Origin: a virus
DNA length: 64,000 nucleotides
Virus record (IMG/VR): IMGVR_UViG_3300042321_002027
Reading direction: 5' to 3' (one strand)
Below are positions 15,733 through 31,274 of the stretch, piece by piece. Every line of letters starts with the position of its first letter. Positions within the stretch are counted from its first letter, which is position 1. A program made the translations under genes and the position numbers. Below the pieces are notes generated by a model. That model was given only the letters and a program-made list of their open reading frames with translations, made no database searches and was not told where the DNA came from.

Positions 15733-15809
15733 GCCTGAGTGGCGCAATCGGTAGACGCATCGGTCTCAAAAACCGAGTGTTGTGGGTTCGAGTCCCACCT
15801 CAGGCACCA
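15733..15809 (+). tRNA. tRNA-Leu(CAA), short variable loop
   Basis: loop CT-CAA-AA, CCA. Confidence 0.88.
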
Positions 15810-27045: not shown

Positions 27046-27546
27046 TTAAGCTGCATCCTGCTTATGGTTAATGTGCTGAATAGCGTCCTTGTAACGGTCA
27101 GCACAGTAGCTGGCAGCCCAAGCGTTTGGCTTGACCAAAGGTATGATGTTACACATACCACGGATGTAACCAACAGCTTCGTTGATAACGCATGAAGAAC
27201 CGTGTTCCTTGTTTGGATTAATGTCCAAGTGGATTTCAACATCACGGTTTTCAAGAACGTCATGAAGGTCCATGTAAAGTTGAGCGGTCTTCATAACTTC
27301 GTTCATCAGACGCATACGAGGCTTATCCTTTTGCTGATCATAGTCGCGCTCACGCACGATACCACCAAACACACGACAACCATTCTTACCGTTTTTGTGA
27401 ACAACTACAACGTTGATATAGTCTGCATGCCAAACACCGTTGATCTGAAAACGTTCTGAGTCACCACCAAGATAAACTTTAGTTTCTGGTGTTTGAGCGT
27501 CGATAAACGTCTTTACTTCTGCGATGTTTAGTTCTTTCCTGATCAT
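27046..27546 (-). CDS. RNase H-like YkuK-family protein
   Basis: YLG.DS, RL..EV, EIHLDIN, ASYCAD. Confidence 0.75.
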   Translation of the reverse strand: MIRKELNIAEVKTFIDAQTPETKVYLGGDSERFQINGVWHADYINVVVVHKNGKNGCRVFGGIVRERDYDQQKDKPRMRLMNEVMKTAQLYMDLHDVLENRDVEIHLDINPNKEHGSSCVINEAVGYIRGMCNIIPLVKPNAWAASYCADRYKDAIQHINHKQDAA

Positions 27547-27685: not shown

Positions 27686-29110
27686 TTAGTAGTCGTAACG
27701 ATCGTTCATTACTGCCTTCAACATGATCCCTTCAGGTGTGAAGTTTTCCATGTTACCGGACAGAACCGCCTTAACGATGGCTGGAGAGAAACCAGAAACA
27801 AGAGCAGTATCGCGCTTGTCGAACTTAACAGGAACGTTGTCCTTTGCGTTAAGGTTCCAGAACACGATCTTAGGCACCTTGTACCCAGCAGCTTCGAACT
27901 TACGCTCGATCATTTCCATCGCTGAGTCGTCGAAACGAACACAAGCATTGAACTGCATATCCGAAAGGATCAACAGCATGTCAGGCATTTCCTCCTGAGG
28001 CACATTACCCTTGACTGCGACATCAAGGATCTTACGCATTGCTGCGTGAAGATTAGTGCTCATACCCCATTCTGAAGCTGACATCTGCTGGATCTTACCC
28101 AGAATGTTGCCCTTCAAGTGCATAAGCTCAGGCTTGTCAGAGAAAGTCAAGAACGTATCCTTGAACTTACCCTTGTTCTTGTCTGCAAGGTAAAGACCAA
28201 GCGAAACAGAAACATCAAGACAAGTAGTCAACGACTTAGAGCCGTAACCACCTGCAGGTGACATCATTGAGCCAGAGACGTCGACGATTGGCAGGATGTT
28301 CGCATCACCAACGTAGTTAGGCAAAGCCTCCCACTGAGCCACGATGTGGTCAAGGTTGGCCTTTTCATAGCTCAGTCGGTATGCACCGATAACACCCTTC
28401 AGTACATCGTATGGGTACACTGCTCCAGCGTTAACCTTTGCAGTTGGATCACCCTTTACGAGCTTCTCCACCCATTCCTTGTACTTTGGCGTATGACGAG
28501 CAAACGCCTTCTTGTAACGTGAGGACGCAACAGAAGGAACGTGGTTGAAGTTGATTTCATCCCACTTGTTCGCACACATGTTCTGCTCGACAACCTTAGT
28601 CAGTTCGACCAGACGCTTACGGTAGTACTTTGGAGTCCAACCAAGGAACGAACGCAGACGAGCCGCATCCTCACCCTTACGTGGCATCCACTTAGCACAC
28701 AGACCATTGCCTGCATCCAAAGCATCCTTGATCAAAGTGAACGCAACTGCCTCAGCAGCTGAGTCCTTGTCAAAGACCAACAGGTCGTCCCAACGACCAA
28801 GCTCAGGGATCTTGCGCATCAAAGCTATAGCGCGGTCCTCGTCCTTGAGAACAAGCTCACGGAGAATGTCGCGGAACACCTTACGCTCACCAGCGCCGCC
28901 ACGAACGTCGCGAGCCCAAAGAGCGATACGTGCAGCAAGATCCTGGTTCTCTACATACGCAGCAGTGAACGCAGGAACTACGTTCTTACCACGCATAGCG
29001 CCGACGTTGAAGAACAAATCAACGCAAGCGGAAGCAGTAGAAGCTCGAGCCTTCATACCGTTCTCGGTACGAGCTTCCTGGTTCTTAACGGCATTAACAA
29101 AAGTAGACAT
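27686..29110 (-). CDS. DUF2828-family protein with C-terminal vWA domain (TROVE/Ro60-like architecture)
   Basis: TENG, DLFF, RDVRGGAGER, GRWDDL, AKWMPR, DVSGSM MIDAS, LSDMQF, FWNL, SGFS. Confidence 0.82.
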   Translation of the reverse strand: MSTFVNAVKNQEARTENGMKARASTASACVDLFFNVGAMRGKNVVPAFTAAYVENQDLAARIALWARDVRGGAGERKVFRDILRELVLKDEDRAIALMRKIPELGRWDDLLVFDKDSAAEAVAFTLIKDALDAGNGLCAKWMPRKGEDAARLRSFLGWTPKYYRKRLVELTKVVEQNMCANKWDEINFNHVPSVASSRYKKAFARHTPKYKEWVEKLVKGDPTAKVNAGAVYPYDVLKGVIGAYRLSYEKANLDHIVAQWEALPNYVGDANILPIVDVSGSMMSPAGGYGSKSLTTCLDVSVSLGLYLADKNKGKFKDTFLTFSDKPELMHLKGNILGKIQQMSASEWGMSTNLHAAMRKILDVAVKGNVPQEEMPDMLLILSDMQFNACVRFDDSAMEMIERKFEAAGYKVPKIVFWNLNAKDNVPVKFDKRDTALVSGFSPAIVKAVLSGNMENFTPEGIMLKAVMNDRYDY

Positions 29111-29126
29111 TTTCACTTTCCTTTTT

Positions 29127-29223: not shown

Positions 29224-29337
29224 CGGGTTTCTATTTTTCGGTGGGAATTGAACCCACTACACTCTGTTTACAAGACAGATGCTCTACCAAATGAGCTACG
29301 ATGGCTTACGCCATTGATTGTTTGCTGTAAGAAACCC
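29221..29337 (-). ncRNA. CAGCAA-family small RNA E2 (permuted tRNA-Thr(UGU) cargo)
   Basis: GGGUUUCU-UA-CAGCAA...D-arm, anticodon arm, T-arm...AGAAACCC-GUUG. Confidence 0.72.
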
Positions 29338-29765: not shown

Positions 29766-29953
29766 CAACAGGATCGCGTTTGCTTAACGTGCTACTATTA
29801 CACCAAGGACCCATCAGATACACACGAAGACGATTTGCCGAAGCATTCTTACCCATCTTAAGGAACAGCTCCGTATGTATTTGGTGGATCCCCTCGGATT
29901 TGCACCGAGACCTTTCCTTTTCAGAGGAATGCATTTTATGCGGAAACGATCCT
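29766..29953 (-). ncRNA. CAGCAA-family small RNA E3 (circularly permuted tRNA cargo, YrlA-like order)
   Basis: AGGAUCG-UUU-CCGCAU...T-arm, 3' acceptor+ACCA, linker, 5' acceptor, D-arm...CGAUCCU-GUUG. Confidence 0.68.
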
Positions 29954-30033: not shown

Positions 30034-30492
30034 TTAGTCTAGTTTAGACCAGTCAAGTATCTTAGCTTTTAACGCCTCATACTCTTCTGACTTATAAGTT
30101 GATCTACCATCTTTACCGTAGTACTTGTGGATGCGTAGCCCTTTCGGTCCATACTTAGCTACCATGTCGATAATTCTCGGCAATATAGCGTTATGGTAAA
30201 GTGCCTCATCATACCTTTTCGATTCGACCTGTTTATAGTTTAGGCCATTTAGAAATGCACGAGCGAGGTGTGTAGCTCTAGATTCATTTCGTACCACTGT
30301 TTTACGGTGATGCTGAAGATTATACCATTTACTATGGTAAGGATAAAACATCCCATCAAACATATTCGCATTTTGAATCTGATGATGTTGTTTTAGCCAG
30401 TTAATCTGGTTACGAATCTTTTGTTCTTCCTTACGGATGATCGCAGGTTCGAGAGCTAGATGTTTAGATTTGATTTTTAATTCGATAGACAT
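30034..30492 (-). CDS. hypothetical basic protein inside RNA array
   Basis: GAGG RBS before MSIELKIKSK; own promoter TTGACT-N17-TAGTAT ending at 30540. Confidence 0.7.
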   Translation of the reverse strand: MSIELKIKSKHLALEPAIIRKEEQKIRNQINWLKQHHQIQNANMFDGMFYPYHSKWYNLQHHRKTVVRNESRATHLARAFLNGLNYKQVESKRYDEALYHNAILPRIIDMVAKYGPKGLRIHKYYGKDGRSTYKSEEYEALKAKILDWSKLD

Positions 30493-30548
30493 TGTTTTCC
30501 TCATGATTTGTATACTACTATGTTTGGTATAAAAAGTCAAGGGAAATT

Positions 30549-30587
30549 TTAGGGTGGTTTGTGTTTCTAGTACAAATATGTCTTCAT
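30549..30587 (-). CDS. mini-ORF MKTYLY-[TAG]-KHKPP-TAA (candidate amber read-through peptide)
   Basis: AGGAG RBS 6 nt upstream; in-frame TAG at 30567-30569; lies 18 nt downstream of the tRNA-CUA CCA end. Confidence 0.5.
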
Positions 30588-30605
30588 GTTATTCTCCTAA
30601 TAAAG

Positions 30606-30681
30606 TGGTGACCCCAGTGGGATTTGAACCCACATCAAGTGTTTTAGAGGCACCTGCATCACCAGATCATGCTCTAGGGTC
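30606..30681 (-). tRNA. tRNA with CUA anticodon (amber suppressor-like)
   Basis: GACCCUA/UGGGGUC acceptor, D-arm, GGUGC-CUCUAAA-ACACU, GUGGG-UUCAAAU-CCCAC, ACCA. Confidence 0.75.
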
Positions 30682-31096: not shown

Positions 31097-31180
31097 TTAG
31101 CGCCGAGCGCGAGCCTTGCGCTTCTTAGAGCCAATTTTTCTGCGTCCTTTACGAGGACGATTCTTGTGTGGGTGCGACAT
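31097..31180 (-). CDS. 27-aa extremely basic peptide (absent from ORF track)
   Basis: GGAGG RBS; MSHPHKNRPRKGRRKIGSKKRKARARR. Confidence 0.6.
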   Translation of the reverse strand: MSHPHKNRPRKGRRKIGSKKRKARARR

Positions 31181-31198: not shown

Positions 31199-31274
31199 TG
31201 GTGCCCCCTGTCAGATTCGAACTGACCCTTGAGCGATTTTAAGTCGCTTTCCTCTACCGCTGGGATAAGGAGGC
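31199..31274 (-). tRNA. tRNA-Leu(TAA), short variable loop
   Basis: loop CT-TAA-AA, CCA. Confidence 0.88.

What the first reader, a model, noticed from the sequence alone, without database searches (positions are those of the whole stretch)
30549..30681. CUA-anticodon tRNA directly followed by a mini-ORF with an in-frame amber codon ending Pro-Pro-stop
Seen: a full cloverleaf with loop CU-CUA-AA and CCA (G at position 8, C-A mismatch closing the anticodon stem). 18 nt downstream, an AGGAG RBS leads to ATG AAG ACA TAT TTG TAC TAG AAA CAC AAA CCA CCC TAA. Core genes in this window are intact in code 11, so there is no genome-wide TAG recoding. Known: Pro-Pro and Pro-stop contexts slow or stall ribosomes. 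Inference: the suppressor has a dedicated local substrate, forming a read-through sensor or switch (for example reporting tRNA integrity or RF1 activity) embedded in the RNA array and just upstream of the 30034-30492 gene.
Basis: partly seen in the sequence, partly recalled or inferred. Interest (0 to 1): 0.8.

Follow-up and report, generated by a model that had tools for sequence, protein, structure and literature searches.

The report
Amber read-through sensor gating a phage gene
A phage that otherwise uses the normal genetic code carries its own UAG-reading tRNA next to a tiny leader gene, which must be read through an in-frame UAG to a ribosome-stalling Pro-Pro-stop end lying on a hairpin that hides the next gene's ribosome-binding site; over 50 diverged phages keep this design, so it looks like a natural sensor of stop-codon suppression that I did not find in the literature.

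Summary
tRNA(CUA) lies at 30606-30681 (-). An AGGAG-led mini-ORF, MKTYLY-UAG-KHKPP-UAA, lies at 30549-30587 (-), just upstream of a 152-aa gene ("X", 30034-30492).

In this window alone the motif is not significant (1 match, 0.13 expected by chance). Comparison settles it:
- Of 55 distinct upstream regions of X homologues, 53 keep TAG, then 2-5 in-frame codons, then CCN-CCN. Forty-five of these have a stop directly after Pro-Pro. Cultured Synechococcus phage BUCT-ZZ01 and roseophage DSS3_MAL1 also carry the module.
- Pro, Arg and Val codons vary synonymously, and indels keep the frame.
- The base after TAG is A in 36, G in 16, C in 4 and T in 0 of 56.
- The leader travels with X, not with the tRNA, but a CUA tRNA is nearly always within about 1 kb.

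The sequence at or just after the leader's stop pairs with X's Shine-Dalgarno. Cognate duplexes average -13.9 kcal/mol against -7.8 for non-cognate ones (p<=2e-4).

Best reading: an erm/SecM-like translational attenuator whose input is amber suppression.

Open points: X's function and the inserted amino acid are unknown, and a promoter-like site inside the hairpin loop may bypass the gate. This scan noted the same design before on other DNA, with Pth2-like cargo. I found no published natural example.

The parts
30606..30681 (-). tRNA with anticodon CUA (amber suppressor type). It has an encoded CCA, G1-C72, A73, a short variable loop, G8 and a C31-A39 mismatch.
   Evidence: ARAGORN; Rfam RF00005 at 51.4 bits; 54 distinct relatives, all with CCA and G1-C72, 49 with A73.
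30594..30598 (-). Shine-Dalgarno AGGAG of the leader mini-ORF, 6 nt before its ATG.
   Evidence: Sequence. GGAG/AGGA-type SDs precede nearly all homologous leaders.
30549..30587 (-). Leader mini-ORF MKTYLY-UAG-KHKPP-UAA. ATG at 30585-30587, in-frame TAG at 30567-30569, Pro-Pro at 30552-30557, TAA at 30549-30551.
   Evidence: Sequence. The pattern TAG + 2-5 codons + CCN CCN is conserved in 53 of 55 distinct leaders, and 45 of these have a stop directly after Pro-Pro.
30526..30547 (-). 5' arm of the hairpin (anti-SD; core TTTCCC at 30541-30546). It starts 4 nt after the first base of the leader's stop codon.
   Evidence: RNAduplex -11.0 kcal/mol. The same helix appears in the MFE fold. Window shuffle z = -2.1, p = 0.043. 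Across the family, mean z = -4.1 and 39 of 41 leaders reach p<=0.05.
30495..30516 (-). 3' arm of the hairpin, containing the Shine-Dalgarno of gene X (GAGGAAAA at 30495-30502). It ends 2 nt before the ATG.
30512..30540 (-). Sigma-70-like promoter match TTGACT-N17-TAGTAT inside the hairpin. The -35 overlaps the anti-SD arm. It is a possible ungated route to X.
   Evidence: 9 of 12 matches; not enriched in this region alone. Sixteen of 41 leaders have a match of at least 9 of 12, against 4.0 +/- 1.9 in shuffles.
30034..30492 (-). Gene X: 152 aa, basic (pI 9.8), helical-hairpin protein of unknown function, with a near-invariant N-terminus MSIELKIKSKHLALEPAIIRKEE. This is the gated cargo.
   Evidence: 595 homologues, none with a functional name; alignment A2; AlphaFold2 pLDDT 91.6; no informative match by Pfam, PHROGs, PADLOC, PDB sequence or fold search.

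Best explanation
The mini-ORF is the regulatory leader of gene X, and it makes translation of X depend on amber suppression. The tRNA(CUA), the leader and X lie 18 nt and 56 nt apart with no terminator between them, so I infer that they share a transcript. In the resting mRNA, the sequence at or just after the leader's stop codon (the anti-SD) pairs with the Shine-Dalgarno of X and hides it. A ribosome that starts on the leader meets UAG as codon 7. If RF1 wins, the ribosome leaves about 20 nt before the hairpin and X stays off. If the phage's charged tRNA(CUA) wins, the ribosome translates three more codons and Pro-Pro, then reaches the real stop. Termination after Pro-Pro is slow, so the ribosome dwells there. 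Its footprint covers the anti-SD arm, the SD of X is freed and X is translated. Shown by comparison: translation continues through the UAG (frame and amino acids are conserved), the SD-hiding helix exists (covariation), and the two stop positions are placed consistently relative to the helix. Inferred: that the ribosome stalls at Pro-Pro-stop, that read-through switches X on rather than off, that the read-through agent is the neighbouring tRNA, and what X does.
For: 1. Conservation. Every close homologue of X examined has the leader. Of 55 distinct upstream regions, 53 carry TAG + 2-5 sense codons + CCN CCN, and 45 of these have a stop directly after. Adding the cultured phages BUCT-ZZ01 (MGGDAS*INLKPP*) and DSS3_MAL1 (MKS*IRPPP*) and the window gives 56.
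2. Coding signature after the TAG. The spacer is 2, 3, 4 or 5 whole codons (4, 42, 9 and 1 cases). TAG is in frame in 45 of 46 leaders that have CCNCCN-stop. All four Pro codons are used. The residue before Pro-Pro is K, R or H in 43 of 56, encoded by AAA, AAG, AGA, CGA, CGT, CAT and CAC. L006 versus L012 and L021 versus L026 each differ at 3 post-TAG positions, all synonymous, including AGA/CGA.
3. The base after TAG is A 36, G 16, C 4, T 0. This is the order of amber-suppression efficiency known from E. coli context studies (own knowledge).
4. The pre-TAG part is dispensable. It ranges from start-stop forms (ATG TAG, TTG TAG) to a 62-codon ORF.
5. Hairpin. Cognate anti-SD:SD duplexes average -13.9 kcal/mol against -7.8 for non-cognate ones; 0 of 5000 permutations reach this. 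Against composition-preserving shuffles, mean z = -4.1 and 39 of 41 leaders have p<=0.05. Positions next to the SD's GG are paired in 78-93% of leaders with TA, AT and GC pair types, and 60.5% of cells pair against 29-41% with slid partners.
6. Geometry. The first paired base lies 13-25 nt (median 20) 3' of the TAG and -4 to +7 from the final stop. The anti-SD core lies -2 to +11 from the final stop.
7. Linkage. A CUA tRNA lies within 2.5 kb in 47 of 56 loci. Four more were found by pattern search or as tRNAs with a 6-nt anticodon loop. The leader stays with X when the tRNA lies downstream.
8. PP-stop is reported as among the strongest termination-stalling C-termini (Hayes 2002, as cited in PMC7246954).
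Against: There is no experimental evidence: no data show that the tRNA is charged, that UAG is read through, or that ribosomes stall here. In the window itself the helix is modest (-11 kcal/mol, p = 0.043), and the whole leader folds no better than shuffles (z = -0.13). RNAalifold on the MAFFT alignment found no consensus structure because the helix is out of register between lineages, so the covariation evidence rests on my own anchored and permutation tests. A sigma-70-like promoter match lies inside the hairpin loop in the window and in 16 of 41 leaders. Transcripts starting there would lack the anti-SD and escape the gate. Nine leaders have sense codons after Pro-Pro, so a stop is not strictly required. 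In L110, L111 and L112/L113 no CUA tRNA was found on the incomplete contigs. X's function is unknown, so the biological logic cannot be checked.
Confidence: 0.72

Rival explanations
1. The leader senses RF1 availability or general termination efficiency at UAG, for example if the phage or a host stress depletes RF1. Read-through would then come from near-cognate host tRNAs, and the neighbouring tRNA(CUA) would be incidental or only modulatory.
For: The switch necessarily measures the competition between RF1 and a UAG decoder, so RF1 level is one of its inputs. Leaders persist in L110, L111 and L112/L113, where no CUA tRNA was found on the contig fragments. RF2's frameshift autoregulation is a precedent for a sensor of stop-codon decoding (own knowledge).
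Against: A CUA tRNA is physically linked in at least 51 of 56 loci, mostly within 200 nt. The three X-like loci without a canonical TAG leader (L090, L007, L008) also show no CUA tRNA on their contigs. The 3' context of the TAG follows the order that favours suppressor tRNAs.
Confidence: 0.12
2. UAG is simply the stop codon of a 6-codon ORF and is never read through. The conserved CCNCCN-stop would be an RNA or DNA element, such as part of the hairpin or a protein-binding site, rather than codons.
For: In a few leaders the 5' arm of the helix begins inside the second Pro codon (first paired base as early as -4 from the stop). CCNCC also resembles an anti-SD.
Against: The spacing from TAG to CCNCCN is always a whole number of codons, with lengths of 6, 9, 12 and 15 nt. 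No stop interrupts the spacer. The third positions of both Pro codons take all four bases. The preceding basic residue is kept through non-similar codons (AGA, CGA, AAA, CAT). In most leaders the first Pro codon, and often both, lie outside the helix.
Confidence: 0.05
3. The read-through peptide (7-20 aa, ending K/R-P-P) is itself the functional product, and its position before X is only operon organisation.
For: The post-TAG residues are conserved at the amino-acid level: I/V first, K/R/H before Pro-Pro.
Against: The N-terminal part varies freely, from nothing to 62 codons. The conserved part is 5-6 residues and matches a stalling motif. The stop codon is locked to the SD-hiding helix, which a free peptide product would not require.
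Confidence: 0.04
4. This is a chance short ORF next to an ordinary tRNA, with no function.
For: Within the window the motif is expected 0.13 times by chance, and 12% of shuffles contain one.
Against: It is conserved in 53 of 55 distinct loci whose X proteins are down to about 37-45% identical, including phages of cyanobacteria and alphaproteobacteria.
Confidence: 0.01

Closest known systems
Leader-peptide translational attenuators of ermC/ermB, cat and cmlA
   Same: A short SD-led upstream ORF. A hairpin sequesters the SD of the downstream gene. A ribosome held at a defined leader codon melts the hairpin and turns on translation.
   Different: The trigger there is an antibiotic bound to the ribosome. 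Here the trigger is whether an in-frame UAG is decoded by a suppressor tRNA, and the helix is a simple two-segment anti-SD:SD pairing.
Arrest-peptide monitoring substrates: SecM-secA, MifM-yidC2, the RAPP peptides ApdA/ApdP (PMC10951233), and TnaC (arrest at Pro-stop, PMC8450073)
   Same: A proline-based C-terminal arrest motif with a basic residue two positions before the P-site Pro (R-A-P | P; here K/R/H-P-P | stop). The stalled ribosome exposes a downstream start site.
   Different: The motif is not RAPP. The stall is proposed at termination, as in TnaC, but needs no ligand. The arrest site is reached only after stop-codon read-through.
prfB (RF2) autoregulatory +1 frameshift
   Same: A natural circuit whose output depends on how efficiently an in-frame stop codon is recognised by a release factor.
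   Different: It uses frameshifting within the regulated gene itself and senses RF2 at UGA. It involves no suppressor tRNA, no leader ORF and no SD hairpin.
Engineered UAG-containing leader peptides ('Uaa transcriptional switch', PMC6412442 section 6 and its ref. 107)
   Same: A TAG placed in a leader peptide makes downstream gene expression depend on an amber suppressor tRNA.
   Different: It is synthetic, built on the tna leader, and acts on Rho-dependent transcription termination. The element here is natural and acts (as inferred) on translation initiation.
Stop-codon-recoded (code 15) phages with suppressor tRNAs (Borges et al., bioRxiv 10.1101/2021.08.26.457843; theta ribozymes PMC10879173)
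   Same: A phage-encoded tRNA(CUA) used during infection of a standard-code host.
   Different: Those phages carry in-frame TAG in many late genes. Here TAG remains a normal, if rare, stop, and the only programmed TAG found is in the leader.
Earlier notes of this scan on other DNA (amber leader + Pro-Pro end + SD hairpin + tRNA-CUA with Pth2-like cargo)
   Same: The same leader design and the same linkage to a CUA tRNA.
   Different: The cargo differs. No Pth or Pth2 homologue was found in this window; the gated gene here is the X family.

Membership tests
Leader-peptide translational attenuator (erm/cat type) | Short upstream ORF with its own SD immediately before the regulated gene | tested here: met
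   AGGAG-N6-ATG at 30587-30598; conserved in relatives.
Leader-peptide translational attenuator (erm/cat type) | RNA helix sequestering the SD of the regulated gene, supported by covariation | tested here: met
   Cognate -13.9 versus non-cognate -7.8 kcal/mol, p<=2e-4; mean z = -4.1 against shuffles; several pair types at positions flanking the SD. RNAalifold on the MAFFT alignment failed.
Leader-peptide translational attenuator (erm/cat type) | Ribosome arrest at a defined leader codon that overlaps the helix | not testable with these tools
   The geometry fits: the anti-SD core lies -2 to +11 from the stop, and the Pro-Pro-stop motif is conserved. Stalling itself needs toeprinting or ribosome profiling.
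Leader-peptide translational attenuator (erm/cat type) | Induction by a ribosome-binding small molecule | not testable with these tools
   No ligand is implied by the anatomy. The conserved variable step is the in-frame UAG.
RAPP-type arrest peptides (ApdA/ApdP) | Arg-Ala-Pro-Pro motif with arrest before the second Pro is incorporated | tested here: not met
   The motif here is [K/R/H]-P-P followed by a stop in 47 of 56 leaders. RAPP occurs only in the variant L115 (TRAPPA).
Code-15 (TAG-recoded) phage | In-frame TAG codons in many protein-coding genes; genes fragmented under code 11 | tested here: not met
   The window has 82 long ORFs, 8 ending in TAG, with extensions of at most 40 codons and no split genes. 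No other amber-gated ORF was found. The capsid and tape-measure genes of DSS3_MAL1 are intact under code 11.
tRNA (RF00005), amber-suppressor type | Cloverleaf with 7-nt anticodon loop carrying CUA, and a CCA end | tested here: met
tRNA-Pyl (ARAGORN's label) | Pyl-specific tRNA architecture and pylS/pylBCD genes | not tested
   ARAGORN gives this label to every CUA-anticodon tRNA (for example). Nothing here suggests pyrrolysine. The amino-acid identity could not be inferred.

The most novel reading that the evidence does not exclude
The suppressor tRNA in these standard-code phages may not be there to recode genes at all. It may act as an orthogonal reporter tRNA. Because UAG is the one codon no host tRNA reads, the leader can measure whether the phage's own tRNA supply chain is working: transcription, processing, modification, charging and survival of tRNA-targeting defences. 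Only then would it license X, a basic protein that often lies near a Ro60-like gene and, in the window, candidate Y-RNA-like elements. That would be a natural stop-codon-suppression sensor, a regulatory input not described for any cellular or viral system, with portable leaders gating different cargos (X here, Pth2-like genes elsewhere in this scan).
Probability: 0.4. Interest if true: 0.9.

Novelty: new variant of a known kind. Interest (0 to 1): 0.8.

Why it matters
Phage suppressor tRNAs are currently discussed almost only as tools for genome-wide stop-codon recoding. Their presence in standard-code phages is unexplained. This locus gives such a tRNA a specific, conserved and testable target: a leader whose UAG must be read through before a hidden ribosome-binding site opens.

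If confirmed, it would add stop-codon suppression to the short list of natural inputs of leader-peptide switches, which are antibiotics, amino acids, and secretion or insertion activity. It would also be a natural counterpart of engineered amber-codon switches.

It also points to protein family X (595 or more members, none with a functional name) as a factor tied to phage tRNA biology. The module is present in two cultured phages, BUCT-ZZ01 on Synechococcus elongatus PCC 7942 and DSS3_MAL1, a roseophage. The model can therefore be tested directly.

Tried and rejected
- DNA similarity of the locus to 50,697 phage records, in near and distant modes: no match.
- No whole genome is held for the window.
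- Single-sequence folding of the whole leader: z = -0.13, uninformative.
- RNAalifold on the MAFFT alignment A3: no pairs, because the helix is out of register between lineages. I replaced it with duplex, permutation and anchored tests.
- Function of X: no significant hit in Pfam, PHROGs or PADLOC (weak sub-threshold Pfam rows only at E 0.018-0.043). Nothing significant in PDB sequence profiles, and nothing informative from Foldseek PDB, VIA-wide (best Z 7.7, generic helical hairpins), the ESM Atlas by structure or features, or a search for longer fused forms.
- tRNA identity by similarity to the phage's own 30 tRNAs: no clear donor. The acceptor features G1-C72 and A73 do not look Gln-, Trp- or Glu-like, but this is not decisive.
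- Other amber-gated genes in the window: only antisense or chance ORFs.
- Pth or Pth2 near the module, as in the earlier scan notes: absent from the window.
- Rfam on the 125-nt insertion in L011: only a weak YrlA row (20.2 bits, E 0.097).
- The promoter-like site was considered as evidence that the mini-ORF is not on X's mRNA. I rejected this as the sole reading because helix covariation requires transcripts that contain both arms. It is kept as a caveat.
- The alternative TTG start of X at 30540 was rejected. All homologues start at MSIELKIK with their own SD, and the upstream stretch is not conserved as protein.

Full report
**Observation.** The window is a phage fragment. It encodes a class II ribonucleotide reductase, ThyX, a primase, a Ro60/TROVE-like protein, a SegE-type endonuclease and 31 tRNAs. 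On the minus strand ARAGORN finds a 76-nt tRNA with anticodon CUA and an encoded CCA at 30606-30681. Rfam scores it at 51.4 bits. The sequence shows AGGAG, six bases, then ATG AAG ACA TAT TTG TAC TAG AAA CAC AAA CCA CCC TAA at 30587-30549. On its own the motif is not remarkable: TAG-N9-CCNCCN-TRA occurs once in the window against 0.13 expected, and 12 of 100 shuffles have one.

**Conservation.** The locus has no DNA-level match among deposited phages. The 152-aa protein encoded just downstream (X, 30034-30492) has 595 homologues, none with a functional name.
- In the first IMG/VR relatives a CUA tRNA sits about 110 nt upstream of X and the mini-ORF is present in all: MKEHFF*VKQKPP*, MKAYFL*VFHPP*, MKAFFL*VFRPP*.
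- Pattern searches, contig look-ups and a profile-based scan extended this to 55 distinct upstream regions of X.
- Fifty-three contain TAG followed by 2-5 sense codons and CCN CCN. Forty-five of these have a stop codon directly after Pro-Pro.
- Two cultured phages have the module. Synechococcus phage BUCT-ZZ01 has tRNA-CUA, MGGDAS*INLKPP*, then X. Roseophage DSS3_MAL1 has tRNA-CUA, MKS*IRPPP*, then X.
- One apparent exception, L111, still starts ATG TCG TAG ATT. It carries an inserted ORF of about 95 codons that still ends VPP-TAA on the anti-SD.
- Only L090 lacks a leader altogether. Its contig fragment also shows no CUA tRNA.

**The UAG is translated through.** The alignment of 41 leaders has invariant columns only at the A of TAG (T and G nearly invariant), at CC-CC-T of Pro-Pro-stop and at the A of X's ATG.
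- The TAG-to-Pro spacing is always a whole number of codons: 3 in 42 cases, 4 in 9, 2 in 4 and 5 in 1.
- TAG is in frame in 45 of 46 leaders that have CCNCCN-stop.
- Both Pro codons use all four third bases.
- The residue before Pro-Pro is K, R or H in 43 of 56, encoded by AAA, AAG, AGA, CGA, CGT, CAT and CAC.
- The first residue after UAG is I or V in 44 of 56 (all).
- Close pairs differ after the TAG only synonymously. L006 versus L012 has GTT/GTA, AGA/CGA and CCG/CCT. L021 versus L026 has ACT/ACC, TAC/TAT and CCT/CCC.
- The base after TAG is A 36, G 16, C 4, T 0. This is the order in which 3' context favours amber suppression in E. coli (own knowledge).
- The part before the TAG is free. 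It ranges from ATG TAG or TTG TAG start-stop forms to a 62-codon ORF.

**An SD-hiding helix locked to the leader's stop.** By eye, and then by RNAduplex, the sequence at or just after the leader's stop is complementary to the SD region of X. The arms change together between lineages, for example TTTCCTATTG with CAATAGGAAA, TTTCCTTAT with ATAAGGAAA, CCGTTG with CAACGG, and CCCTAATTGGG with CCCAATTAGGA.
- Cognate arm pairs average -13.9 kcal/mol against -7.8 for non-cognate pairs. None of 5000 permutations reaches this.
- Against composition-preserving shuffles of the 5' arm, mean z is -4.1 and 39 of 41 leaders have p<=0.05. The window has z = -2.1 and p = 0.043.
- Anchoring on the SD's GG, the four positions 5' of it are paired in 78-93% of leaders through TA, AT and GC pairs. 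Overall pairing is 60.5% against 29-41% with slid partners.
- RNAalifold on the MAFFT alignment found nothing because the helix is out of register. The window's whole leader is not more stable than shuffles, although its MFE structure contains the helix.

**Geometry and mechanism.** The first paired base of the 5' arm lies 13-25 nt (median 20) downstream of the T of TAG. It lies -4 to +7 nt from the first base of the final stop. The anti-SD core lies -2 to +11 from that stop. A bacterial ribosome shields roughly 12-13 nt 3' of the first base of its A-site codon (own knowledge). A ribosome terminating at UAG therefore leaves the helix intact, while one with the final stop in its A site covers the anti-SD. 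Pro-Pro-stop is reported as among the strongest termination-stalling C-termini (Hayes 2002, as cited in PMC7246954). A basic residue two positions before a P-site proline recalls RAPP and TnaC arrests (PMC10951233; PMC8450073). I therefore read the element as a translational attenuator: RF1 at UAG gives OFF, and suppression followed by a dwell at Pro-Pro-stop gives SD exposure and ON. The direction of the switch and the stall itself are inferred, not shown.

**Linkage to the tRNA.** ARAGORN finds a CUA tRNA within 2.5 kb of X in 47 of 56 loci, usually ending about 110 nt before X. Two more were found by pattern search (L058, L077). Two more have an odd 6-nt anticodon loop, CCCTAA (L102, L106). 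In L021, L026 and L030 the order is leader-X-tRNA(Val)-tRNA(CUA), so the leader belongs to X and not to the tRNA. The 54 distinct tRNAs all encode CCA and have G1-C72. Forty-nine have A73 and 47 have the loop CU-CUA-AA. Which amino acid they carry cannot be told.

**No general recoding.** In the window 46, 28 and 8 of 82 long ORFs end in TAA, TGA and TAG. Extensions after TAG are at most 40 codons, and no gene is split by TAG. No other SD-led ORF with an early TAG is credible. In DSS3_MAL1 the capsid, tape-measure and other genes are intact under code 11, with stops TGA 30, TAA 13 and TAG 5. The leader is thus the only programmed UAG seen.

**The cargo.** X is basic (pI 9.8; family median 9.7). 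Its first 23 residues are almost invariant at the protein level while their codons vary. AlphaFold2 with 54 homologues gives a confident model (pLDDT 91.6): a long helical hairpin, a small beta hairpin and a C-terminal helix. Foldseek, VIA-wide, the ESM Atlas, PDB profiles, Pfam, PHROGs and PADLOC give nothing informative, and no fused forms were found. In several of the loci examined X lies a few hundred bases upstream of a Ro60-like DUF2828/DUF7788 gene. In the window the gap between them holds tRNA-like RNA elements. Its function is unknown.

**Caveats.** A sigma-70-like match (TTGACT-17-TAGTAT, 30540-30512) sits inside the hairpin. Such matches occur in 16 of 41 leaders against 4.0 +/- 1.9 in shuffles, so some lineages, including this one, may also express X from an ungated transcript. 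Nine leaders continue past Pro-Pro with sense codons. In L110, L111 and L112/L113 no CUA tRNA was found on the incomplete contigs. Everything rests on sequence comparison.

**Comparison with what is known.** Full-text searches found no natural leader gated by an amber codon. The nearest items are an engineered UAG-containing tna leader (PMC6412442) and a passing suggestion that recoding could let phages respond to suppressor tRNAs (bioRxiv 10.1101/2021.08.26.457843). This scan has noted the same design before on other DNA, there with Pth2-like cargo. The present case shows it with a different and much larger cargo family, and in two cultured phages.

**Verdict.** This is a new variant of leader-peptide translational attenuation whose input is stop-codon suppression. 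My confidence in the mechanism is about 0.7.

Noticed in passing
window 29238-29301 (-) and 29885-29952 (-): Partial tRNA-like elements lie between gene X and the Ro60-like DUF2828/DUF7788 gene (27686-29116). Rfam tRNA scores 52.8 bits over model positions 5-66 only, and 26.8 bits below threshold.
   Followed up: partly
L011 5912-6035; the same in L016 and L019: Close relatives with an identical tRNA-CUA and leader carry an insertion of about 125 nt between the CCA end and the leader's SD. It is GC-richer and looks structured. Rfam gives only a weak YrlA row (20.2 bits, E 0.097) spanning the tRNA plus the insertion.
   Followed up: partly
L021 4448-4521: A tRNA with anticodon UCA (opal-suppressor type, labelled SeC by ARAGORN) lies 27 nt after the tRNA-CUA in one relative. 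This gives a tandem pair of suppressor-type tRNAs.
   Followed up: no
L102 1522-1597 and L106 2242-2317: These tRNAs lie near X and have a 6-nt anticodon loop, CCCTAA, containing CUA. ARAGORN cannot assign them. They may be non-canonical amber decoders in the clade whose leaders are start-stop forms (ATG/TTG TAG).
   Followed up: partly
window 31199-31274 (-) and 15733-15809 (+): tRNAs with the Leu anticodons UAA and CAA are only 76-77 nt long and have short variable loops. This is unusual for bacterial-type tRNA-Leu, which has a long variable arm.
   Followed up: no
window 31097-31180 (-): Directly after tRNA(UAA), a GGAGG-led 27-codon ORF encodes a very basic peptide (MSHPHKNRPRKGRRKIGSKKRKARARR). 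It is followed by a stem-loop. This is another tRNA-adjacent mini-gene.
   Followed up: no
L009 4885-5303 (BUCT-ZZ01) and L119 7967-8375 (DSS3_MAL1): Both cultured phages that carry the module also encode a tmRNA. In BUCT-ZZ01 it starts about 500 nt downstream of X's stop. This is notable because Pro-Pro-stop stalls are classic tmRNA substrates.
   Followed up: no
L119 18106-19056 (DSS3_MAL1): The annotated peptidyl-tRNA hydrolase CDS ends in TAG and is in frame with the next CDS, an RNaseH_like protein homologous to window 27046-27546. Read-through would fuse them. This could be coincidence, since the second ORF has its own start.
   Followed up: partly
L055 and L059, upstream of X (2399-2506): In this variant the leader has no stop after Pro-Pro and stays open, in frame, into X's ATG. 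Amber read-through could give an N-terminally extended X.
   Followed up: no
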